Shown: piece by piece, positions 50,226 to 60,767 of the stretch
Layout of the letters: every line of letters starts with the position of its first letter
How positions within the stretch are numbered: the first letter of the stretch is position 1
The notes under the pieces: generated by a model
Seen by the model: only the letters and a program-made list of their open reading frames with translations
Database searches by the model: none
What the model was told of the DNA's origin: nothing
Translations under genes and position numbers: made by a program
Source of the DNA: Clostridia bacterium
GTDB taxonomy: Bacteria > Bacillota > Clostridia > UBA1381
Reading direction: 5' to 3'
DNA: 64,000 bases
Assembly (NCBI GenBank): GCA_045658645.1
Contig: JAZOVJ010000054.1
Location: forward strand, 7,805-71,804

Positions 50226-50245
50226 AAAAACTCCTTTAACGCCAA

Positions 50246-50599
50246 TTATTCCTTCCCTTTGTTTTTCGCCGTTGTAACCGATGCAATAAGTTTTCTTCTT
50301 ATTGTTCCGCACTTGTTAATCGATGATTTATATGTGCTTTCATCAATCTTATTCTTACGATATAATAATTCTAACCAATACTCAGTTTCAAAGCTCTCTT
50401 TTAATGCAATTTCTAATTTGTTTATAAAATCTGCCTTGCTTTGAGCATATTTTGCTTCGTGAAGATTTGCACCGATCGAAGAGGAGCATCTTAATAGTTG
50501 ATTTACATAAACAGAACACCCATTGATGTTGTCGCAAATATCGGATATTTCGATTGCAAAATTTATGGTGTCCTCTCTTAATAAGTTTTTCTGATCCAT
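50246..50599 (-). CDS. Four-helix-bundle protein (TIGR02436 / 23S rRNA intervening-sequence protein family; the DGR Avd proteins are structural relatives)
   Basis: 117 aa. NQLLRCSSSIGANLHEAKYAQSKADFINKLEIALKESFETEYWLELL is the family core motif. AAAGGAG RBS. It lies 20 nt upstream of the TraX gene. Confidence 0.8.
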   Translation of the reverse strand: MDQKNLLREDTINFAIEISDICDNINGCSVYVNQLLRCSSSIGANLHEAKYAQSKADFINKLEIALKESFETEYWLELLYRKNKIDESTYKSSINKCGTIRRKLIASVTTAKNKGKE

Positions 50600-50615
50600 A
50601 ATCTATTCTCCTTTG

Positions 50616-50792
50616 TCGATATACACGCTTTGCGTGTTCGATATATTTTGCTTCGCAAAATTCGATATAACCTCGCTATGCTCGGTTTCGATATGATATA
50701 AATCTCGTTGCCGTAAGGCAACATATCGAGCCGTCAGGCATATCGAGTTCCTATGGAACATATCGAAAATCCCGCGAGAGATTTATATCGAT
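50616..50792. repeat. Array of 8 heptamers: 4x (T)TCGATAT, then 4x the inverted ATATCGA(A), with each interval itself a different short hairpin
   Basis: The plus-strand heptamers start at 50616, 50638, 50662, 50688, then 50723, 50740, 50760, 50785. The spacers are hairpins: CACGC-TTT-GCGTG, TTTTGC-TTC-GCAAAA, GTTGCC-GTAA-GGCAAC, GCC-GTCA-GGC, GTTCC-TAT-GGAAC and AAATC-N8-GATTT. There is a 12-nt long-range complement between 50695-50706 and 50778-50789. No ORF covers the region. Confidence 0.8.
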
Positions 50793-50824
50793 GAATCTGT
50801 CTGCACAAAAAGTGCGACAGATTC
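50793..50824. other. 13-bp stem-loop flanking the heptamer array
   Basis: GAATCTGTC(T)GCAC-AAAAA-GTGCGACAGATTC with one bulged base. No adjacent U-run on either strand. Confidence 0.7.
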
Positions 50825-50934
50825 GACGTGATACCCTTTGTACAAACTTGTGGTGTCGTGCCATAAAGCCATATGTATCAAGGAATTGTGCCAATTTATA
50901 ACTTTGCAAGATTTAGCAAATTTTATCCGTTTGA

Positions 50935-50979
50935 GACCACTCAATCAAGGAAGAAATCAACTCCTCCGATTGAGTGGTC
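50935..50979 (-). terminator. Long-stem hairpin 7 nt beyond the stop of the scaffoldin-like gene (possible terminator or processing site)
   Basis: A 12-bp perfect stem, GACCACTCAATC / GATTGAGTGGTC, with a 21-nt loop. The downstream U-tract is poor. Confidence 0.4.
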
Positions 50980-50985
50980 GAGTTG

Positions 50986-53900
50986 TTATTTTACAGCTGT
51001 TATAGGCTTCAAGCTATTCATATCTTCCCAAATCATAAGTTTATAAGTTGCATAAGCCTTTTTGTCATAGTCGATGCTTAAATCAACCTTACCAGGCTTA
51101 ACAGTTATATCCTTTGGCATAAGCTGAACCATTCTGCCATCACCATCATAGAAAGCGATTATTGCTTTTGCAGATTGTTCTTCATAAGAATTATCAAAGT
51201 ACAATTCACAAGAGAAGTTGGTATCGCCTACAGCCTTATTTGTCGTGATATAATCATCACCTAAAACATAGCCTGTTTCGTAGTTTACGGCTACATTTTC
51301 TATCGTCTGATTACAGAAGTTGTTTTCTGCAGATTTAATGCTGATAGGTGAAATAGATGTGTCTGTAGGGTTCTTATAACGAACCTTGACGGTAAAGAGT
51401 TCACCGTCTGCTACTGCATTGCCTTCCTGATAGCAGAATACAATCAAGCCTTCATCATTTTCCTGACCTAAGTTTGTGCCAAAGTTTTCGGGGTTGATAA
51501 ATTCTGATGGAGCGATGCTTACAATCTCAATGTCATCAGCATCGTAATCAAGTACAAATCTGTATGCCGCAACACCCGGATTATTCTTAATATAAACAGG
51601 AATATCCGCTTCATTTGCATCATTTACCGAAGCGGTACCAATGGTTACTGTTGGTGTTTCCGGAACATCAGTATTCAATGACATCAGCGACATAAGTTCA
51701 ATGCCCGTCCAACCGACAACGTATTGTGCTAATTTTACCACGTCTTTGATATCAACTAAATCGTCATCAGTAACATTTGCAGCTTCCATCTGACGGTCTG
51801 TGAAATCTGCAAGACCTATCATATGTCTTGCAAGTAAGGTTAAGTCATAAATATTAACATCGCCGTCTTCATAGATATCACCGGGCAAAGGTTCTTCAAC
51901 GGTTACTTTTGATGATTCTGTGTAGAGCGCAATGTTTTCGCCTGCTGTGTTGCAGATATCCTTTGCTCCGTATTCGATGGAAATATCAGAGTAATCACCG
52001 AGTTTCGCTGTTTCTGCTACTTTGAAATCAATAGTAAATAATTCGCCGTTAATATCAATATCAGTATCACTATTTGAATACCAAACTACGTTGAATTCAG
52101 TTCTGTTTTCATCATCAAGGTTAGTTGTAAGTGTACCACCAAATTCTTCATTTGCAGTTACAGATACAGGTGTCAAAAGAGTATCATCATAATTAATGGT
52201 AAATTTATATCCTGATATGCCAGGGTTTCTGATGATGTTTACTTTAGCTTTTGCTATTCCTGCTGGGAACGATTTAACATTGTCTACAATTACAGATGGA
52301 CCGGATGCAGATACAACTTTAACAACACATTCATGTGAAAGTCCGTTTGTGGTTTTTGCTTTAATCGTTGCAAAACCCTCGCCAACAGCTGTTATAACAC
52401 CATTTTTGTCAACTGCTGCAACATCATCATTGGATGATGTCCATATCAGAGTGGTTTCAGTTGCGTTTGAAGGTAGCATAGTTGCAGTTAATGCTTTAGC
52501 GTCTTCAGGTGCAAGTGTTATATATGTATCTGAAAGAGTTAGCGAGGTTGGCTCAATCGGTGTAGATTTTACTGTTACATAACAAGTTGCAGTTAATCCG
52601 CTTGAGGTTCTTGCAGTAATTGTTGCTGTTCCTACTCTTTTTCCAGTAACAAGCCCAGTACTTGATACAGTTGCGTAAGTTGTTGACGAGCTTGACCATG
52701 TGATTGTATCTGTTGTATCAAGTGGTAACATAGAAGCACTTAATTGATACGTAGAATTCACATAGGTTGTTATGCGAGGTTTATTCACTGTAACACTTAT
52801 TGAGGGTTGTGTTACTGTCACTGTACACTGTGCAGTTATCCCACTTGTTGCAGTTGCGGTAATATAAGTTATCCCAATTTTATGTGCCGTAATTTTGCCA
52901 TTCTGGTCAACTGTTGCAATACTTTCATCCAAACTACTCCAGGTTATATTGCCTTCATAATCGGAAGGGGATAATGTTGCTGATATAATATCACTACTAC
53001 CAATTTTAATAGATTTGGATGTAGCAGAAAGTGTAATTGAAGCAATAGGAGCGGATACATTAACAAAACATTCCGCTCGAAGATTGCTTTGAGTTGTAAT
53101 TGCATAAATTTTTGTTGTTCCTCTTGCTTTAGCTGTAACATATCCATTTTGATCGACTGTTGCAACTTTTTCATTTTCGGAATACCATTTAACCGTTTCA
53201 TTTGCGGCAGTAGGATTTTGGATTGTCGTTAAACCATAACTTTGTCCTTCGTTTACATTGATTTCAGACTTTGAGAGAATCATTGAAGAAGCAGTTCTAT
53301 AAACATAAACCATACAATTTGCCTTCATTCCATTTGCATTTGTTGCTGTTATGGTGCACGAGCCAATGGAACGAGGTGTTACTATGCCTGTGGATGATAC
53401 CGTTGCAATTGAAGTATCATCACTTGCCCAAGTTACAGATTCTTTTGTATTATCAATGTATGCGTTTAATTGTTCAGTTTCACCTTCATTCATAACAACT
53501 ATACATTTGTTAATGTCTATATGTCTAGGTAAGTCTACTAAGCTTGGAAGTCCATTATTAATATTATCATTAATACACCATTTTTCTTCAGAAAATTTGT
53601 AATTAGATAACGTCATATCATCTATTGAATCATAATATATTGTCGCTTCTTTTGAATCTTTGTGTGGTGATATATCTCCTAAATGATAACTATTAATATA
53701 ATTATTTGATATATTGTCATAGCCTCGTTCAGCATTGTTTTTTCCATAAGATTTAACAATGCCAACATTTATTGAGTTTTCAACTGGCTTTGAGGAAGAA
53801 CTATCGCAATTTACAATTCCACTAGAGTATACTAATCCCTTTGCATAAACCATTCCAGAATTAAAAGAATCACTTATATATCCTCTCTGACTAGTGTGCA

Positions 53901-55068
53901 TATAATCATAGTTCTCTCCGGCTATTCCTCCCACGTATATGCTATATTCAGATGATGTGATTACTATAATCTTTCCAGAATTAAAACAACTGCGTATATA
54001 TCCATTTCTTTCTCCGCCGTTATTACCAGCTATTCCGCCTACAGCACAACCAACTGTTGCAGCACTTTCTATAGTACCAGTATTTATGCAGTTATCAATA
54101 CTTCCGTTATTTAAAACTGCAATACCGCCTGCATCATCTGAACATATTATGTTTCCGTTATTTATACATTTTTGTATAGAACCCCTATTTTGTCTTGATA
54201 TACCTCCTGCGTTTCCTCCTTCAATATTTCCATAACCAACACAATCTTTTATAGTACCGTTGTTCTCAGCACAAATACCGCCTGCATAGTTGTAACCTTC
54301 AACAACACCATAGTTTTCACAATTAATTATAGTACTATTATTTTCTCCACATACACCACCCGTTGTTTTTCCATCTATATATCCGTTGTTAGAACAATTT
54401 TTTATATTTTTTATGTTTTTTCCTGCAATACCACCATTTACTGTTCCAACCACATTTCCCGTGTTCTGAGAATTTAGTATATCTCCTGCGTTGTATCCAA
54501 CAATGCCACCACCTGTTGAGCTAGGAGAGGAAACATAGCAGTTGTTGTATAAATCATCTACTATTCCTAAACTATATCCTACAACACCACCTACATTTAA
54601 GTCAAAACTGTGATAAACTCCTTTTACATTACCACTTACGGAGCAATTGTAAACATTGCTATTTTCTTCAGCATACCCAACTAATCCACCTACATAACGA
54701 TAACCAGACGCATCAACATTGGTAAGATTGAGATTCTTAACAGTACCTTCAAGATAACCTACAAAACCAACATACTTATTTTCGGGTAAATTAATATTCA
54801 GGTTACTGATGGTATATCCTGCGCCATCTATTGTGCCCGTAAATGCGCCTTCGGTTTCGTTGCCGATAGGTTCAAATGCTATACCTGACATATTGATATT
54901 GTTTGTTAGTTTGTAATATCCGTCTAAATCATCATGAATCTTTGCAATATCACTTGCAGATGAAATTAAATATGGGTTTGATTCTGTACCTGTTCCACTG
55001 ATAGCAAATGCAGGAACAGACGCTAAAAGCATAGATATTGTAATTATAATTGATATTATCTTTTTCAT
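50986..55068 (-). CDS. Giant secreted scaffoldin-like protein: signal peptide, GLUG-like Gly-rich repeat region, 5 Big_2 Ig-like domains, cohesin, dockerin, cohesin, C-terminal beta-domain
   Basis: Signal peptide MKKIISIIITISMLLASVPAFA. Repeated GG(I/L/V)(V/A)G units over residues ~125-390. Five modules of ~80 aa with the (V/I)TW(A/S)S(S/D)..(I/V)ATV...G.(V/I)TA...G...ITA signature over residues ~518-918. Cohesin-like modules at residues ~924-1057 and ~1138-1262. A dockerin-like duplicated segment, GDIYEDGDVNIYDLTLLARHMIG...ANVTDDDLVDIKDVVKLAQYVVG, at residues ~1062-1119. AGGAGG RBS. Confidence 0.8.
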   Translation of the reverse strand: MKKIISIIITISMLLASVPAFAISGTGTESNPYLISSASDIAKIHDDLDGYYKLTNNINMSGIAFEPIGNETEGAFTGTIDGAGYTISNLNINLPENKYVGFVGYLEGTVKNLNLTNVDASGYRYVGGLVGYAEENSNVYNCSVSGNVKGVYHSFDLNVGGVVGYSLGIVDDLYNNCYVSSPSSTGGGIVGYNAGDILNSQNTGNVVGTVNGGIAGKNIKNIKNCSNNGYIDGKTTGGVCGENNSTIINCENYGVVEGYNYAGGICAENNGTIKDCVGYGNIEGGNAGGISRQNRGSIQKCINNGNIICSDDAGGIAVLNNGSIDNCINTGTIESAATVGCAVGGIAGNNGGERNGYIRSCFNSGKIIVITSSEYSIYVGGIAGENYDYMHTSQRGYISDSFNSGMVYAKGLVYSSGIVNCDSSSSKPVENSINVGIVKSYGKNNAERGYDNISNNYINSYHLGDISPHKDSKEATIYYDSIDDMTLSNYKFSEEKWCINDNINNGLPSLVDLPRHIDINKCIVVMNEGETEQLNAYIDNTKESVTWASDDTSIATVSSTGIVTPRSIGSCTITATNANGMKANCMVYVYRTASSMILSKSEINVNEGQSYGLTTIQNPTAANETVKWYSENEKVATVDQNGYVTAKARGTTKIYAITTQSNLRAECFVNVSAPIASITLSATSKSIKIGSSDIISATLSPSDYEGNITWSSLDESIATVDQNGKITAHKIGITYITATATSGITAQCTVTVTQPSISVTVNKPRITTYVNSTYQLSASMLPLDTTDTITWSSSSTTYATVSSTGLVTGKRVGTATITARTSSGLTATCYVTVKSTPIEPTSLTLSDTYITLAPEDAKALTATMLPSNATETTLIWTSSNDDVAAVDKNGVITAVGEGFATIKAKTTNGLSHECVVKVVSASGPSVIVDNVKSFPAGIAKAKVNIIRNPGISGYKFTINYDDTLLTPVSVTANEEFGGTLTTNLDDENRTEFNVVWYSNSDTDIDINGELFTIDFKVAETAKLGDYSDISIEYGAKDICNTAGENIALYTESSKVTVEEPLPGDIYEDGDVNIYDLTLLARHMIGLADFTDRQMEAANVTDDDLVDIKDVVKLAQYVVGWTGIELMSLMSLNTDVPETPTVTIGTASVNDANEADIPVYIKNNPGVAAYRFVLDYDADDIEIVSIAPSEFINPENFGTNLGQENDEGLIVFCYQEGNAVADGELFTVKVRYKNPTDTSISPISIKSAENNFCNQTIENVAVNYETGYVLGDDYITTNKAVGDTNFSCELYFDNSYEEQSAKAIIAFYDGDGRMVQLMPKDITVKPGKVDLSIDYDKKAYATYKLMIWEDMNSLKPITAVK

Positions 55069-55081
55069 CTGTTTTAACCTC

Positions 55082-58000
55082 CTATTTCTGTGTTACAGTT
55101 CCTGATACATTGCTATCGTTTTTGTTATATTCGCCATAACAGTTTACAGAACTGCTGAAAGTTATTCCTTTACGGGAATTATTTAATAAATTTAAGTTAT
55201 TAAAGTTTGCACCACTGCAAGAAATGATTTGTGGGGTTTTGCCGATTATATTAACATTCTCAGGCTTATTTACAGTAAGAGAACTACCATACAAATCACC
55301 CTTAATATTAATCGTTCCGCTTCCGCTTAATTTTGTAGAATTCATTACTGCATCACTTCCGAGAGTTAATTCGCCATTAACAATAATATCAGAATAGGAT
55401 GAAATACTTGCTAATTTCTTTACTGTTAGAGAAGAAGTTTCATCAATCTCGATTGTTTTGGAACTTACACTTGCAGTAAGACGCTTATTTATAACAAGTT
55501 TTGCACCATTTATCAACTTGATTCCTGCTGTTATATTTGCGGTATCTACCGCAACAGTACATCCATCTATAATTAAATCTGTTGTCTGATTCAATGTAGA
55601 ATAAGTCTTATTTGATGTAATTACTCTGCCGGAGGATATAATAATTTTTGTGTCATCAACCGTTACACCATTGTTAGAGTAGGTGTCTGCAACATTGATA
55701 TTTGTTTTCAGATTTATTTTGCCTTTTCCATTCAACGTAAGATTATCAGTTGAGATACTGTTTCCACTAATTTCTGTTAATGATGCCGAACTCAAACTCA
55801 AATCATCAATATCAATTGTTCCGTTATTATAAATATCATGCGGCGTTGTGATTGAACCTCCGCTGATAGTTCCAGAATTAACAAATTCTTTATTGGCAGT
55901 TATTAGGCAATTGTTTATTGTACTGCTATTTTGTAGAATGCCTTTTACTGCAATTGGAGTAGAATTACCTGTTATAGTATTACTGTTTGTAAACCCAGAA
56001 TTGCAGATAACTGAGCTGCTTTCGTCAGTTGTTAAAGGAACAGATAGTGTAAATTTGCCATCAACATTCAATTTTGCATTTTCAAGAGTAAGATTTCCGC
56101 TATTAACAGTTAAATATCCTCCAATATCTGTATCTTGTTTTATTGTATTGGTTGCGGATACTATCACATTACCTGTCAATTTTGAGGGCAAATCACAAGA
56201 ACTCTGGATTGTAACATCGCCCTGATATGTATTACTTCCAAATTTACCGCCAGATAAAAGTGTCATCCCTATTCCGGATGTTTTGCCGTAGGTGTTGGTT
56301 AGTGTACCGCTGACATTTACAGTATTTGAAACCTTTACTCCTTTAGGATTGGTATTTGTAAAGTTTGTAGTGTTCAGAGTCCCGTTAATATTCTGTTGCA
56401 GTTTGCCTTGAGTAATGATGTTATTGAAGGTATTTGTACCATTTACAGTGATATCTCCGTCTGAATAATAGGTATTTTCATTTTGCGTAACTGTTCCGCC
56501 AAAATAGGAATCAGCAGTTACTGTTACATCTCCATTTAAATTAAGTGTTCCGCTGCTTTGAGTAAGACCACCAGTAATACTTACATCATCAAGGTTTACT
56601 GTGTTCAGGGTTTTGAGTGTTCCGCCAAATGTCATTGCTCTATCAAGAGTAATTCCATCAAGGGTAAGCCCACTATTATAATGGTCACCTATAATGCTCC
56701 CTGTAGATTTCAGCGTAGTATTTTGACCATTAGTCACTTTTGAAGAGGTATTCTTAACTGTTCCTGAAACATATATTGTTCCTGGCTGATTTGCAGTACC
56801 AGTATTATTGTACACAAGGTTAGTAATATTTAATGCACCACTTAAATTCTGCGTATCACTACCCGAAACACATAAATTTTGAATGACGCCACCGCCACCA
56901 GTGGAGTCACCCTTTAAATATATTGTGCTACCATTGATTGTTCCCTTAACAGATAGATTTTCACAATATATAGGAATTTCTAAAGTCACAGTGCCACTTG
57001 AGTTATCAAAATATTTACATGCTAGATTATCTCTATGGGCAGATTTAAGAGTACCACCATTTAAGTGCAAGGAGTTAATATAAGAGGTATTTGCGCCCAA
57101 TGTAGTAGTACCACTGTTTTGGGTATATTCAGAAATGCTTGTACTACCAGCAAACTGAACCAACCCACCATTATTAACTATATACGGAATATAAGCATTA
57201 GGGATATTATTACTCATAAGAACTTCTCCACCATTATTCACATAAATACCACCTGCAACTCTATATTCAAGTTCTCCGATTCCTCTCGTGTTATCAGCAG
57301 TTGTAAGAATACCATACAAACCGCCTTTAGCATCTTCATAATATATAGTCAATCTTTCACCTTTATTAACAGTTAAACTGTTTGAAGTAAAAGGCATCGC
57401 CGATGCGCCAATTAAAGCATCAACCCTATACTGATAAACAGTACCAAGATAAGAAATTAAAGATTCATCTCTATTAAGTGTTCCACTTGATAAAAGTCTG
57501 CATAATGGAGAATCCCACTGACCTTCTATCATTTTATAAGCAACTGTTTCACCGCGAAGCCTTAATTTTTGAATCATTAACAAGTCATCAAGAACATTCT
57601 CGGCATTTTCTTCAGTTTTGTTTGCAAGATAGGTTTGAACATCTTTATTATAGGTATCAACAGCAACTTTGATTATTTTTTCAAGATATTTTAATTCATA
57701 AGTCTTTTTACAAACATCGCCAAAACTCATAGTTTTATCTGCACACCAAGCAGCAATTTCAACCACGTTAACCGATTTTGCCAATACAGTACTTGCAGCA
57801 GTCTTTGCGAGACCTGCGTTTGAATATTCCCAAGCCATATCAAGATTTTCACATATGAATTTCTCGACATAAGGGGAAACCTTACCAGATACTTTATCTA
57901 TAGCCCAATCTCCAAATTCATTTACAGCACCTGCATTTCTCAAATACTGCATCAGGGTTTCATAACCCATAAGTTTTGCATTACCCGCTTCACCAACTTC

Positions 58001-59056
58001 ATCAGCAAAGGTATTTAATATAGAATTAAGTTGTGTGTTTTTACTGTTATCAGACATTCTGGTAAGAGTGTCGCCAACAGCCTCCTTCTGTGTTCCTATT
58101 GAATTGATAAACATATAGGTAGAAAGAGTTTTTGATACTGTGCTTATAGAAGAACTTGCACTCTTAACAATACCCAAAGTACCATCATCGACAAAGAAAG
58201 TAGGAGCATAATAAACTATATCAGATGATATTTCTGCATTAGCAGATTCAAATCTATCCATTTGAGAAACCATTGCAAGAGCAGTAATAAAAGCAGCGAG
58301 GTCTTCGGCATCATCAGTACCCTGAATATCAGCAAAAGAACCCAAAACACTTTCAACACTATCGGTATAAGGAATAAGGAACTTATTGTAGTAATCCATT
58401 CTGTCATCAAAAGTGTCATCATTCATATGATTAGCAGATGCATCCGCTTTAAAGAAACTTGCAAAATCTTTAAGATTTTTAAGACCTTTATCAAGTCTTT
58501 CAAGGTTTTCTAATTCAATTTCTTTTGTAGAAAGAGTTGTACCATCAGAAGAAGTATAATCGGTTGCAAGAACTTCTTTCAATATACTTTCATACTGAAG
58601 CTCACCCACGCTATATGTAAGGTCATCCATAACAGTTTGAGCATCACTACTGAAGATAGATGCTAAATCTGCCGCAAAGGAAGAAACCCAATCAGTAGCA
58701 TGCTGAACATAGTCATCACCATTATATACTTTTTCCATAATATCCACAGCAAAAGAATACGCAAGATTAAACTCTGGATTATCTGTATTCCGATATTGCT
58801 CTAATAGGTTATCCATCATAGCATTTTCATTACCAATGTTATTAACCAGTGCATGAGGATTTGTAGAGAAGTCTGTTTTATAATTTGTACCGATTAAGGT
58901 ATCAATTACAAACTGCCTGTCCCCATATAATATATTTTCAAGTATTGCCATATTAGGCGAAACATAAGAGGTTGCCGCACTTGAATATATATTAAAAGTA
59001 AACAGACTTGCAATAATACTCAAGACAACAGCAATACTTATAAGTCGTTTTTTCAT
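55082..59056 (-). CDS. Giant secreted protein: signal peptide, ~530-aa helical domain of unknown function, ~760-aa beta-helix-like degenerate repeat region
   Basis: Start taken at MKKRLISIAVVLSIIASLFTF...SSA (GGAGG RBS, ATG 59056). The C-terminal two-thirds consists of degenerate G/N/T/S-rich ~20-25-aa units (..NNGG.L.....T.....N.GT..L..). There is no LPXTG, dockerin, SLH or cohesin motif. It lies 13 nt upstream of the scaffoldin-like gene. Confidence 0.75.
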   Translation of the reverse strand: MKKRLISIAVVLSIIASLFTFNIYSSAATSYVSPNMAILENILYGDRQFVIDTLIGTNYKTDFSTNPHALVNNIGNENAMMDNLLEQYRNTDNPEFNLAYSFAVDIMEKVYNGDDYVQHATDWVSSFAADLASIFSSDAQTVMDDLTYSVGELQYESILKEVLATDYTSSDGTTLSTKEIELENLERLDKGLKNLKDFASFFKADASANHMNDDTFDDRMDYYNKFLIPYTDSVESVLGSFADIQGTDDAEDLAAFITALAMVSQMDRFESANAEISSDIVYYAPTFFVDDGTLGIVKSASSSISTVSKTLSTYMFINSIGTQKEAVGDTLTRMSDNSKNTQLNSILNTFADEVGEAGNAKLMGYETLMQYLRNAGAVNEFGDWAIDKVSGKVSPYVEKFICENLDMAWEYSNAGLAKTAASTVLAKSVNVVEIAAWCADKTMSFGDVCKKTYELKYLEKIIKVAVDTYNKDVQTYLANKTEENAENVLDDLLMIQKLRLRGETVAYKMIEGQWDSPLCRLLSSGTLNRDESLISYLGTVYQYRVDALIGASAMPFTSNSLTVNKGERLTIYYEDAKGGLYGILTTADNTRGIGELEYRVAGGIYVNNGGEVLMSNNIPNAYIPYIVNNGGLVQFAGSTSISEYTQNSGTTTLGANTSYINSLHLNGGTLKSAHRDNLACKYFDNSSGTVTLEIPIYCENLSVKGTINGSTIYLKGDSTGGGGVIQNLCVSGSDTQNLSGALNITNLVYNNTGTANQPGTIYVSGTVKNTSSKVTNGQNTTLKSTGSIIGDHYNSGLTLDGITLDRAMTFGGTLKTLNTVNLDDVSITGGLTQSSGTLNLNGDVTVTADSYFGGTVTQNENTYYSDGDITVNGTNTFNNIITQGKLQQNINGTLNTTNFTNTNPKGVKVSNTVNVSGTLTNTYGKTSGIGMTLLSGGKFGSNTYQGDVTIQSSCDLPSKLTGNVIVSATNTIKQDTDIGGYLTVNSGNLTLENAKLNVDGKFTLSVPLTTDESSSVICNSGFTNSNTITGNSTPIAVKGILQNSSTINNCLITANKEFVNSGTISGGSITTPHDIYNNGTIDIDDLSLSSASLTEISGNSISTDNLTLNGKGKINLKTNINVADTYSNNGVTVDDTKIIISSGRVITSNKTYSTLNQTTDLIIDGCTVAVDTANITAGIKLINGAKLVINKRLTASVSSKTIEIDETSSLTVKKLASISSYSDIIVNGELTLGSDAVMNSTKLSGSGTINIKGDLYGSSLTVNKPENVNIIGKTPQIISCSGANFNNLNLLNNSRKGITFSSSVNCYGEYNKNDSNVSGTVTQK

Positions 59057-59072
59057 TTGATTACCTCCATTT

Positions 59073-59106
59073 AAAAAATGCGTAGCCCGTATTTCAGAGC
59101 TACACA
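59073..59106 (-). terminator. Imperfect terminator-like hairpin between the methyltransferase gene and the first giant gene
   Basis: On the minus strand, TGTGTAGC-N12-GCTACGCA (7 of 8 positions complementary, the eighth a G-U wobble) followed by T6. It ends only ~10 nt before the GGAGG RBS of the 55082..59056 gene. Confidence 0.4.
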
Positions 59107-59153
59107 CGAAAAACATACGTTCTCTGACATAAATCGTTTCTTCATATTTTGGT

Positions 59154-60767
59154 TTATATCATTCTGAAATGCTCAAAAGCATCTTTAATTGCATCCACTT
59201 TATGCTTGGGACAATTAGGTTGTTTATAATCCTCGGATGGTTTATTATAATTTTCTCTTTCTGTTATCCCACATTCTTGTTTTACCTGTGCGATATTTAA
59301 GGATGAAACTTTAAAACCGTATTTATTCAAAACATGTTCTTTTACTTGGTTATATGTTGCCCTGGCTTTTGGTGCAGTTACTTCAAGTTCATCCAAATCA
59401 AGTTCAACTGTTATAGAGTCACTTTCTTTCAGTTTGGTCAAAAGAGCAACAGTCTCAACATGAACAGTATGCGGGAACATATCGACTGCCGTTACTGCTT
59501 TTGCAGCGTAACCATTTTCTGTCAAAAATCTCGCATCACGGGCAAGAGTTGCAGGGTTACAGGACACATACACAATCCTTTCAGGCTTTGCGGAAACGAT
59601 TGCAGAAAGCGTTTTTTCGTCACTGCCCTTTCTCGGAGGGTCAAGGATAACGATGTCGGGGGATATATTGTCTCTTAAAAGTTCAGGCACAATATCCTCT
59701 GCAGCCGAGCAATAGAACTTTGAATTTTCAATGCCGTTTCGTTTGGCATTTTCTTTGGCGTTCTCAATTGCCTCGGGTACTATTTCCACACCGATAACCG
59801 CTTTGGCGGTTTTTGCGGCAGTAAGTGAAATCGTACCAATTCCGCAGTAAATATCCAAGACGGTATCATCTTTTTTAATATCCGCAAACTCGATTGCCTT
59901 TCCGTAAAGTTTTTCGGTCTGCTGTGGGTTTACCTGAAAGAAACTATGCGGGGAAATCTCGTAGGAAAGACCGCAAAGTGTGGCAGATAACACATCTTTT
60001 CCCCATAAAGTCACATTTTTATCTCCAAGCACAAGATTTGTACGTTTTTTGTTTATATTAAGAATAATGCTTGAAATTTTCGGTGAAACAGCGGTGATGC
60101 TCTCAATCAGTTCTTCGCTTTTCGGGATGCTGCCTGCATTTGCCGAAATCACAACCATAGCCTCATTCTCTGTGGTACGAAGAAAAGCTCTGCGCATAAT
60201 CCCTTTGTGTTCTGCCTCATCATACACCGAAATGTTGTACTTTTTTATATGAGCCGAGATAGCGTTCATAATCTCGGTTGTTAAGCTGTCGCCTAAAAGG
60301 CAATCGGAAAGCGGGATAACATCGTGGCTTCTTTGTCTGTAAAAGCCCCAGCTGCCGTCAGGCGCGAAAGGGAACACCATTTTGTTTCGGTAACGTGATG
60401 GTTGCTCCATGCCGATAATATCAGGCTCCAAATCAATTTTGCCAAGACGTAAAAGAGCGTCACGGACGATGTTCTTTTTGAACTCAAGCTGGGTGCTGTA
60501 ATCAACTGTCATAAGCTGACAGCCACCGCACTTTGCAAAATGCCTGCAAGGCGGCTCTGTTCGAAGCGGTGACGGGGTAATAACCTCCACTGCTTTGGCA
60601 TAGCCATAGTTCTTATTTGTCTTTAAAACCAAAAGCGTAACCTCATCGCCGGTTACTGTTTGCGGTACAAAAAGAGTGTATCCGTCAATTCTGGCGATGC
60701 CGTTGCCGTCAGAGGATAGAGTTTCAATTATTGCTTTATATTTATGATTTTTCTTTACGGGAATAAT
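59154..60767 (-). CDS. 23S rRNA (uracil-C5)-methyltransferase, RumA/RlmD/RlmCD family (TRAM domain, 4Fe-4S Cys cluster, SAM methyltransferase, ~90-aa C-terminal extension); start codon unresolved
   Basis: FAKCGGCQL cluster, DPPRKG, and VSCNPATLARD. The ORF-track start (TTG 60632) truncates the TRAM domain, which continues in frame upstream (KKNHKYKAIIETLSSDGNGIARIDGYTLFVPQTVTGDEVTL). No ATG, GTG or TTG is available there, so the 5' end given (ATT 60767) is a guess. Confidence 0.8.
   Translation of the reverse strand: MIPVKKNHKYKAIIETLSSDGNGIARIDGYTLFVPQTVTGDEVTLLVLKTNKNYGYAKAVEVITPSPLRTEPPCRHFAKCGGCQLMTVDYSTQLEFKKNIVRDALLRLGKIDLEPDIIGMEQPSRYRNKMVFPFAPDGSWGFYRQRSHDVIPLSDCLLGDSLTTEIMNAISAHIKKYNISVYDEAEHKGIMRRAFLRTTENEAMVVISANAGSIPKSEELIESITAVSPKISSIILNINKKRTNLVLGDKNVTLWGKDVLSATLCGLSYEISPHSFFQVNPQQTEKLYGKAIEFADIKKDDTVLDIYCGIGTISLTAAKTAKAVIGVEIVPEAIENAKENAKRNGIENSKFYCSAAEDIVPELLRDNISPDIVILDPPRKGSDEKTLSAIVSAKPERIVYVSCNPATLARDARFLTENGYAAKAVTAVDMFPHTVHVETVALLTKLKESDSITVELDLDELEVTAPKARATYNQVKEHVLNKYGFKVSSLNIAQVKQECGITERENYNKPSEDYKQPNCPKHKVDAIKDAFEHFRMI

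What the first reader, a model, noticed from the sequence alone, without database searches (positions are those of the whole stretch)
50986..59056. Two-gene module for giant secreted proteins, apparently lower in GC than its surroundings
SEEN:
- Two ORFs of 1324 and 1360 aa lie back to back, 13 nt apart. Each has a Sec-type signal peptide and a strong GGAGG RBS.
- They sit between a housekeeping rRNA methyltransferase gene and the Avd-like/TraX/flavodoxin genes.
- By eye the DNA is more AT-rich than the flanking core genes, and the proteins are strongly enriched in N, T, S and G. This was not computed.
- I could not find a sigmaA-type promoter in the 97 nt between the upstream gene and the first giant ORF. 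That space is occupied by a terminator-like hairpin ending ~10 nt before the RBS.

INFERENCE: this is an accessory cell-surface module, probably co-transcribed. Expression may depend on read-through or attenuation at the upstream hairpin, or on a non-sigmaA promoter. The pairing of a beta-helix protein that has no anchor or dockerin with a cohesin-bearing partner suggests the two products assemble with each other or with other dockerin proteins.
Basis: partly seen in the sequence, partly recalled or inferred. Interest (0 to 1): 0.6.

Follow-up and report, generated by a model that had tools for sequence, protein, structure and literature searches.

The report
Mobile two-gene surface-protein cassette, promoter lost
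Two giant secreted-protein genes in this gut Clostridia genome are foreign DNA, left behind by a mobile element that inserted into the end of an rRNA methyltransferase gene; they belong to a conserved, unnamed gene pair that spreads between gut bacteria, and this copy has lost its own promoter.

Summary
Two intact minus-strand ORFs, A (55082-59056, 1324 aa) and B (50986-55068, 1360 aa), lie 13 nt apart. Both have Sec-type signal peptides and GGAGG ribosome-binding sites. GC is 0.354 against a genome value of 0.397, and GC3 is 0.235 against a mean of 0.366.

They are accessory. An 8.6-kb insertion (50831-59439) sits inside the 3' end of rlmD/rumA. It gives rlmD a new tail of about 95 aa, and the original rlmD tail is stranded downstream of B. 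Close relatives have the empty site. Only 1 of 40 relatives searched has an A homologue.

Elsewhere the A-B pair is always together, with TAG overlapping the GGAGG site. It often lies in islands with serine recombinases, and one of these also abuts a long-tailed rlmD.

A is a signal peptide, a swappable N-terminal head and a conserved beta-helix. The head is an unknown helical domain here, and Lipase_3 or a third type in relatives. B is GLUG repeats, Big_2 domains and cohesin-dockerin-cohesin, so B has its own dockerin.

The hairpin upstream of A is the terminator of a ~190-nt switch-like leader RNA. That leader is absent from Rfam, and this scan has probably met the family before in another genome. 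In this genome the promoter and the 5' two-thirds of the leader are deleted. Function is inferred, not shown.

The parts
59440..59462 (-). Left junction: the rlmD segment CATGTTGAGACTGTTGCTCTTTT, where homology to relatives' rlmD ends. It is an imperfect copy (17/23) of the segment at 50808-50830.
59154..59439 (-). Insert-borne replacement 3' end of rlmD (~95 codons, ...ALLTKLKESDS...HFRMI*). It is absent from the ~405-aa RlmD of the nearest relatives. It is 49-59% identical to the tails of long-form rlmD in L002 and G019.
59057..59130 (-). Remnant of the leader RNA: only the linker (GTCAGAG...), the terminator and the ribosome-binding site. The promoter and the P1-P4 domain are deleted.
59073..59107 (-). 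Intrinsic-terminator hairpin (11 bp, 5 GC) plus T6. It is homologous to the terminator of the intact leaders.
55082..59056 (-). Gene A, 1324 aa: signal peptide (58976-59056), all-helical head of unknown function (57383-58975), beta-helix (55085-57382) with a strongly conserved C-terminal ~90 aa (55085-55354).
55066..55087 (-). A-B junction AAATAGGAGGTTAAAACAGATG: the stop codon of A overlaps the Shine-Dalgarno sequence of B.
50986..55068 (-). Gene B, 1360 aa: signal peptide (55003-55068), GLUG / M26_N-like repeats (53524-55002), 5 Big_2 plus Big-like (52303-53523), cohesin 1 (51973-52293), dockerin (51718-51885), cohesin 2 (51331-51651), unassigned C-terminal domain (50989-51282).
50935..50979 (-). 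Long inverted repeat just after the stop codon of B, with no T-run. Possibly the end of the operon.
50783..50830 (-). Stranded original 3' end of rlmD (HVESVALFVQTDSSI*). It is collinear with the native rlmD end of relative G012 and marks the right junction of the insertion.

Best explanation
The region 50831-59439 is what remains of an integrative element of gut Clostridia that inserted into the 3' end of rlmD (rumA).

Shown:
- The insertion replaces the last codons of rlmD with an insert-borne tail and strands the native tail 8.6 kb away.
- Nearest relatives have the site empty or filled with other things.
- The same two genes travel together in other genomes, often next to large serine recombinases.
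- One such island starts at a long-tailed rlmD and ends with a serine recombinase in the same orientation.
- In this genome everything but the two cargo genes is gone, including the recombinase, the promoter and about 120 nt of a structured leader RNA.

Inferred:
- A and B are one operon, translationally coupled, and both are exported by Sec.
- B is a scaffoldin-like stalk. Its cohesins and dockerin could let it bind itself, the host's dockerin proteins or the host's scaffoldins.
- A is a beta-helical fibre that carries an exchangeable N-terminal head. The head is an unknown helical domain here and a class-3 lipase or a third type in relatives.
- The conserved C-terminal beta-helix of A is the likeliest part to hold A to B or to the cell.
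- In intact copies a switch-like leader decides whether transcription passes the terminator.
- In this copy the terminator stands alone behind rlmD, so expression probably depends on read-through and may be low.
For: Insertion:
- Homology to relatives G009, G010 and G012 stops at ~59440 and resumes at 50831 (G012) or 50237 (G009, G010).
- The orphan tail at 50783-50830 matches the native end in G012.
- The new tail is shared with L002 and G019.

Distribution:
- A homologue of A was found in 1 of 19 species of the same genus and in 0 of 21 other relatives.
- It was found in 11 loci among 185,579 species genomes, from several Clostridia lineages.

Mobile context:
- Neighbours include serine recombinases, TnpV, Amidoligase_2 with GGACT, and DnaB_C.
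- rumA is a documented target of single serine integrases, with exchange of gene 3' ends (PMC4701971).

Pairing:
- A is followed by B in all nine loci examined.
- The junction is conserved.
- dN/dS against the closest pair is about 0.2.

Architecture:
- The beta-helix model has pLDDT 92.
- Head swapping is seen.
- The head family has 103 cluster representatives, nearly all placing the domain at the N-terminus.

Leader:
- Promoter plus leader stand upstream of A in L001, L002, L003, L040 and L073.
- The leader fold has z = -8.1.
- 19 of 45 predicted pairs show compensatory changes.
- G000 matches only the last ~76 nt.
Against: - No recombinase, att core or mobilisation gene is present in this window, so the mechanism of arrival is inferred from relatives.
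- In L046 and L048 the pair also sits alone between housekeeping genes, so it may move by routes other than this element.
- There is no expression data.
- No interaction between A and B was tested, and A has no recognisable dockerin.
- Neither protein has a recognisable cell-wall anchor.
- The dockerin of B scores 22.0-22.4 bits, just under the Pfam cut-off of 22.9.
- The head model is poor (pLDDT 57) and matches no fold.
- The genome is a 77-contig MAG, so repeat-rich scaffoldin genes could be missing from it.
Confidence: 0.6

Rival explanations
1. Silent relic: the deletion that removed the promoter and leader left the pair transcriptionally dead behind a constitutive terminator. The open frames only reflect how recent the deletion is.
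For: The promoter and 5' leader are missing. The terminator is the minimum-free-energy and centroid fold of the remnant. The linker that could oppose the terminator is mutated in G000. No promoter-like site was found on the minus strand.
Against: Both 4-kb frames are intact and full length against homologues. There is a possible extended -10 at 59153-59161. Read-through from rlmD is possible. This rival concerns the state of this copy, not what the pair does, so it can be true together with the best explanation.
Confidence: 0.3
2. Polymorphic toxin-like antagonism system: A carries interchangeable toxic heads (lipase, membrane-active helical domain) and B presents or delivers it.
For: The heads vary on a conserved carrier, and one head is Lipase_3. 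The pair is carried on mobile elements.
Against: No conserved small immunity-like gene lies next to the pair, and G000, L046 and L048 have none at all. Export is by Sec signal peptide only, with no dedicated secretion system. The variable part is N-terminal, the reverse of classical polymorphic toxins. The helical head has no toxin match in Pfam or the PDB.
Confidence: 0.12
3. Transfer adhesin of the mobile element: the pair promotes cell-cell contact for conjugative mobilisation, like the aggregation proteins of Gram-positive conjugative elements.
For: The pair is the constant cargo of one island family, with backbones shared between L003 and L074. The proteins are large, secreted and repeat-rich.
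Against: No conjugation genes were seen within 10 kb in any locus. The pair persists alone after the element is lost (G000, L046, L048). A lipase head is hard to fit to an adhesin.
Confidence: 0.12
4. Native core operon or assembly artefact: the genes belong to the lineage, or the contig is a chimera.
For: Cohesin-dockerin proteins are common in relatives (27 of 41 genomes).
Against: Relatives have the empty site. The duplicated rlmD end and the low GC3 also argue against a native operon. The flanks are syntenic on both sides of a single 73.5-kb contig. A chimera would not create an in-frame new rlmD tail together with an orphan tail.
Confidence: 0.03

Closest known systems
ICEs and IMEs of Firmicutes that integrate into rumA with a single large serine integrase (streptococci; CTn5 of C. 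difficile 630 delta-erm), PMC4701971
   Same: The target gene is the same. The insertion lies in the 3' part of that gene, and the C-terminus of the methyltransferase is replaced by element sequence. The related island L002 has a serine recombinase at the far end in the same orientation.
   Different: This copy has no integrase, no mobilisation genes and no defined att core, and only the cargo is left. The published cases exchange 3' ends with a frame change. Here the new tail begins with a rumA-like HVETVALL stretch.
Adaptor scaffoldins of cellulosomes and amylosomes (proteins with both cohesins and a dockerin, such as ScaA of Ruminococcus flavefaciens); named from established knowledge
   Same: B has two cohesins above the Pfam cut-off and a type-I-like dockerin in one secreted protein.
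   Different: B has no carbohydrate-active module or CBM. The dockerin sits between the cohesins. The N-terminus is GLUG and Big_2, as in adhesins. The obligate partner gene A has no dockerin. The pair is carried on a mobile element.
Non-cellulosomal cohesin-dockerin complexes of secreted enzymes in Clostridium perfringens (Adams et al. 2008); from memory, not checked here
   Same: Cohesin-dockerin modules are used to assemble secreted proteins other than cellulases.
   Different: Those modules sit on glycoside hydrolases encoded at separate loci. Here there is a fixed two-gene unit with an enzyme-free scaffold.
Beta-helical secreted adhesins and fibres (two-partner-secretion adhesins such as EtpA and HMW1, autotransporter passengers, phage spikes)
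   Same: The confident model of A residues 560-1324 is a long beta-solenoid. The top structural neighbours are of this class.
   Different: No PDB match is significant (best E = 0.16). The viral matches have TM <= 0.25. This is a Gram-positive, Sec-only protein, with no TPS or autotransporter domain.
Terminator/antiterminator leaders (riboswitch expression platforms) of Firmicutes
   Same: In intact copies a promoter, a conserved multi-stem domain, a linker with alternative partners and an intrinsic terminator lie just before the ribosome-binding site.
   Different: There is no Rfam family and the ligand or factor is unknown. This window keeps only the last ~76 nt.

Membership tests
rumA-targeting serine-integrase integrative element | Insertion within the 3' part of rumA/rlmD, with replacement of the protein's C-terminus | tested here: met
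   definition from PMC4701971
rumA-targeting serine-integrase integrative element | Element-encoded large serine recombinase at the distal end | tested here: not met
   None lies between 50831 and 59439. One is present in the related island L002. So this copy is a remnant, not a functional member.
rumA-targeting serine-integrase integrative element | Short direct repeats (2-21 bp) at both ends | tested here: inconclusive
   Only an imperfect 23-nt similarity (17/23) was found between 59440-59462 and 50808-50830. The crossover point is not resolved.
rumA-targeting serine-integrase integrative element | Conjugation or mobilisation module | tested here: not met
   None in the window or within 10 kb in related loci
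Cohesin-dockerin scaffoldin | One or more cohesin modules | tested here: met
   PF00963 at 59.6 bits (cut-off 24.1), two stretches; 43.5 and 41.0 bits in the genome scan
Cohesin-dockerin scaffoldin | Dockerin module with duplicated Ca-binding loop-helix | tested here: inconclusive
   PF00404 at 22.0-22.4 bits against a cut-off of 22.9. The duplicated DxDxD-type segments are visible by eye. B homologues carry recorded Dockerin_1 hits.
Cohesin-dockerin scaffoldin | Cell-anchoring module (SLH, sortase signal) or binding to an anchoring scaffoldin | tested here: not met
   Pfam and NCBIfam reported no SLH or other anchor family for either protein. No LPXTG-type C-terminal sorting signal or C-terminal TM segment was seen by eye in the translations. 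No other cohesin was found in this 97.7%-complete MAG.
Cohesin-dockerin scaffoldin | Demonstrated cohesin-dockerin binding | not testable with these tools
   Needs protein work or a multimer prediction
Polymorphic toxin system | Variable toxin domain on a conserved carrier | tested here: inconclusive
   The heads vary, but only one has an enzyme family (Lipase_3). No toxicity is known.
Polymorphic toxin system | Adjacent cognate immunity gene | tested here: not met
Any Rfam RNA family (for the hairpin and leader) | Match to a curated covariance model | tested here: not met

The most novel reading that the evidence does not exclude
A-B is a self-contained, horizontally portable plug-in for cohesin-dockerin surface networks. 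In this reading B is a scaffoldin that can dock to itself and to host partners, and it presents a beta-helical fibre whose N-terminal effector head is exchanged between elements (lipase, unknown helical domain, others). The whole unit is switched by an undescribed leader RNA. It would be a Gram-positive counterpart of two-partner or contact-dependent effector display.
Probability: 0.2. Interest if true: 0.7.

Novelty: new variant of a known kind. Interest (0 to 1): 0.45.

Why it matters
Gut Clostridia are hard to culture, and their surface biology is mostly unannotated. This work defines a two-gene unit that carries no functional annotation: neither half of protein A matches Pfam, NCBIfam, PHROGs or the PDB. 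The unit is conserved as a pair, moves between families of gut bacteria, and carries exchangeable heads on a constant fibre. It also shows cohesin-dockerin modules riding on a mobile element outside any fibre-degrading context. That gives a route by which surface architecture could be transferred as a package. This copy is a natural deletion mutant of a widespread, undescribed leader RNA, which could serve as a contrast when that leader is tested. If the pair proves to be an ordinary adhesin, the result is still a clean annotation of an 8.6-kb island and of a rumA insertion hot spot in this lineage.

Tried and rejected
- Function of the head domain of A: Pfam and NCBIfam gave nothing. A profile search against PDB sequences gave nothing. 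The AlphaFold model has pLDDT 57 and no fold match. PHROGs and PADLOC gave nothing.
- Beta-helix of A: the best PDB hit has E = 0.16. The viral library gave only generic fibre or spike matches with TM <= 0.25. So this gives a fold class, not a family.
- Phage origin: the PHROG hits of B come from its Ig domains, except one hit of unknown function on the N-terminal GLUG region. No capsid or terminase gene lies in any context.
- Immunity-gene search: the small ORFs next to the pair share no homology linked to head type.
- Test of whether the new rlmD tail is the C-terminus of the excised element's integrase, as in streptococci: the tail matches no recombinase in the held loci, and the L002 record could not be extended.
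- I first read the insertion as 9.2 kb including the hairpin ladder and the four-helix-bundle gene. This was corrected to 8.6 kb once G012 showed rlmD, ladder and bundle gene contiguous.
- Leader hunt in JGI metagenomes with a strict pattern: only 2 loci. A looser pattern in sampled genomes was far more productive. The 3 IMG/VR hits look like chance matches inside coding sequence.
Full report
**1. What is there**

- The two ORFs are on the minus strand. A runs 55082-59056 (1324 aa) and B runs 50986-55068 (1360 aa), 13 nt apart.
- Each follows a GGAGG site and begins with a basic n-region, a hydrophobic core and a small-residue cleavage motif (SSA|A and AFA|I). This was read by eye, because no signal-peptide predictor was available.
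- Upstream lies rlmD (TIGR00479, 414 bits). Downstream lie a four-helix-bundle gene, traX and a flavodoxin gene.
- The 97-nt spacer before A holds an 11-bp hairpin with a T-run (59073-59107), ending 9 nt before the ribosome-binding site.
- The composition claim holds. Module GC is 0.354 against 0.397 for the genome, in the lowest 2% of 8-kb windows.
- GC3 is 0.235 for both genes against a mean of 0.366 (sd 0.052); they rank 4th and 5th lowest of 545 long ORFs.

**2. It is an insertion into rlmD**

- The window lies in a 1.38-Mb, 77-contig MAG that is 97.7% complete.
- A homologue of A was found in 1 of 19 other species of the genus and in none of 21 further relatives.
- The flanks are syntenic in close relatives:
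  - G010 has ctsR, a ~405-aa rlmD, traX and the flavodoxin gene; its contig ends just inside lepA.
  - G009 has the same order through a complete lepA, but with a small membrane ORF between rlmD and traX.
  - G012 has rlmD, a hairpin ladder, the four-helix-bundle gene and traX.
- Against G012, homology stops at window ~59440, near rlmD codon 397, and resumes at 50831.
- The segment 50783-50830 reads HVESVALFVQTDSSI*, which is the native end of rlmD (G012: HIESVTLLVQTDSSI*), stranded 8.6 kb downstream.
- The rlmD of this genome instead continues into a tail of about 95 aa (59154-59439). That tail is 49-59% identical to the tails of long-form rlmD in G019 and in the metagenomic locus L002.
- The insertion is therefore 50831-59439. 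It contains the new rlmD tail, A, B and little else.
That led me to check G012, and it corrected my first estimate of 9.2 kb.

**3. Where it came from**

- In all nine other loci whose neighbourhoods I read, an A-type gene is followed at once by a B-type gene.
- In six of seven loci measured, the stop codon of A overlaps GGAGG and the gap is 11-13 nt.
- Several loci are islands with large serine recombinases, TnpV, Amidoligase_2 with GGACT, DnaB_C-like genes and methyltransferases.
- L003 and L074 share one backbone.
- In L002 the island begins right after a long-tailed rlmD and ends with a serine recombinase in the same orientation.
- This matches the published behaviour of single serine integrases that target rumA and exchange the 3' ends of rumA and the integrase gene (PMC4701971).
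- No island gene other than A and B survives in this window or genome.
- In L046 and L048 the pair also stands alone between housekeeping genes.
- GC of the pair follows its host elsewhere (0.32-0.49). The values here match the low-GC copies.
- dN/dS against the closest pair, L073, is about 0.2.

**4. The promoter puzzle**

- In L001, L002, L003, L040 and L073, gene A is preceded by a strong sigmaA promoter (TTTACA, 17 nt, TGnTATAAT or a close variant). The promoter is followed by a ~190-nt RNA that ends in the same terminator and ribosome-binding site as here.
- The L002 leader folds with z = -8.1.
- Eleven sequences give a consensus of P1, P2, P3, P4 and the terminator. It has 45 pairs, of which 19 show compensatory changes.
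- A five-sequence alignment instead gave an 18-bp helix between the conserved AAAAGCGTAC.CTCTGAC and the linker GTCAGAG..TGTGCGTTTTT, with three compensatory pairs.
- Single-sequence folds split evenly between terminator and linker-terminator pairing. This is the layout of a switch.
- No Rfam family matches.
- A motif pattern hits 14 of 401 sampled Clostridia genomes (12 of 216 genera); the reversed-pattern control gave 0 hits. The downstream genes are varied, and several are secreted or membrane proteins.
- The scan has apparently met this leader family before on other DNA (e1-3390047). The link rests on only 3 of 39 shared short words and on my own structural evidence.
- This window matches only the last ~76 nt of the leader. 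The promoter and the P1-P4 domain are gone.
- About 25 nt separate the rlmD stop codon from the point where leader homology starts.
- The remnant folds as the terminator.
It is now in effect the terminator of rlmD. A-B must rely on read-through or on an untested extended -10-like TGATATAAA at 59153-59161.

**5. The proteins**

- Residues 560-1324 of A model confidently as a beta-helix (pLDDT 92).
- Its structural neighbours are secreted adhesins and viral fibres, but none is significant in the PDB, and the viral matches have TM <= 0.25.
- The head (residues 28-558) is all-helical. It models poorly (pLDDT 57) and has no Pfam, PDB-sequence or fold match.
- The head defines a family of 103 cluster representatives. 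Nearly all place it right after the signal peptide of proteins 1.2-1.6 kaa long.
- P0028 and P0035 keep the signal peptide and beta-helix (78% and 41% identity) but carry a Lipase_3 head.
- The partner gene in L069 keeps the beta-helix (31% identity, E = 9e-47) with a third head type.
- The last ~90 residues of A are the best conserved part.
- B has GLUG / M26_N-like repeats, five Big_2 domains, a Big-like domain, two cohesins and, between them, a dockerin (22.0-22.4 bits against a cut-off of 22.9; homologues pass).
- Pfam and NCBIfam reported no SLH or other anchoring family for either protein. I saw no sortase-type sorting signal or C-terminal TM segment by eye in the translations.
- In this MAG the only cohesins are the two in B.
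- Two other dockerin proteins exist:
  - a 231-aa secreted protein on contig C3, with orthologues in relatives;
  - a protein on contig C25 with what looks, by eye, like a C-terminal membrane helix.
- Cohesins are common in relatives (27 of 41 genomes), so the lineage uses this system. This small genome either keeps few cohesins or they were not assembled.

**6. Reading**

- Origin and state of the locus are well supported.
- Function is inferred. I read the pair as a co-translated pair of Sec-exported proteins that form an extracellular or surface assembly. In that reading B is a scaffoldin-like stalk and A a fibre with an exchangeable head.
- I rank a toxin-like role and a transfer-adhesin role lower. 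There is no immunity-like partner gene and there are no conjugation genes nearby.
- The copy may be poorly expressed.

**7. Verdict**

The accessory and operon readings are supported. The promoter question is answered by a deletion. The assembly hypothesis is corrected (B has its own dockerin) but remains untested. It is a new variant of known kinds: a rumA-targeting element remnant and a non-cellulosomal cohesin-dockerin protein pair.

Noticed in passing
L001:9787-9980, L002:9803-9985, L003:9778-9985, L040:3335-3517, L067:5558-5742, L073:137-331, L078-L085, L087; remnant at window 59057-59130: A ~190-nt leader RNA behind a strong promoter, made of P1-P4, a conserved TAAAAGCGTAC and TAGCAACCTT, a linker and a terminator. 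It has no Rfam family. It was found in 14 of 401 sampled Clostridia genomes, ahead of varied genes: secreted proteins, an O-antigen-ligase-like protein, an ECF-S-like protein, an apparently NRPS-condensation-like protein (my reading by eye; no domain search run), and small proteins. In L085 the terminator is absent and the ribosome-binding site follows the linker directly.
   Followed up: partly
window 50237-50831 and the same site in G009, G010, G012: The rlmD-traX junction is a variable spot. G010 has nothing there (20 nt), G009 has a 578-nt segment with a small membrane ORF, G012 has the hairpin ladder plus the four-helix-bundle gene, and this genome has the ladder, the bundle gene and the A-B insert. 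The first heptamer of the ladder overlaps the native rlmD stop codon.
   Followed up: partly
window 50246-50599: The four-helix-bundle (TIGR02436) gene has up to 5 paralogues per genome in 22 of 41 genomes searched (G000 included). Copies of ~90% identity occur in another family of the order (G036, G038, G028), which looks like a mobile small gene.
   Followed up: no
window 60633-60758: The rlmD of L002 aligns to this frame upstream of the TTG start at 60632, through the TRAM region. The real start of rlmD is therefore probably further upstream or non-canonical.
   Followed up: no
G000 contig C25:3895-4062 (minus), outside the window: An ORF with a dockerin-like EF-hand pair, an acidic Thr/Pro-rich linker and what looks, by eye, like a C-terminal hydrophobic helix. 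It is a candidate membrane-tethered dockerin that could hold a cohesin protein such as B at the cell surface.
   Followed up: no
L068:4336-11618 and L069:6684-13972: More distant B-type scaffoldins also follow tightly coupled partner genes. In L068 the scaffoldin has LRR_5 and M26_N, and the partners are proteins of 522 and 205 aa with no family. In L069 the partner is an 1101-aa A-type protein with a third head. L069 lies among replication-type genes (DNA pol III beta, SSB, helicase, MoxR, VWA).
   Followed up: partly
L033/L040 (G014 contig C22) and L034 (G014 contig C9): The one congener with A-B has its long-tailed rlmD cut by a contig end, and the pair with a full leader lies on another contig 3.5 kb from that contig's end. 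This is compatible with the same insertion site, but it is unproven.
   Followed up: partly
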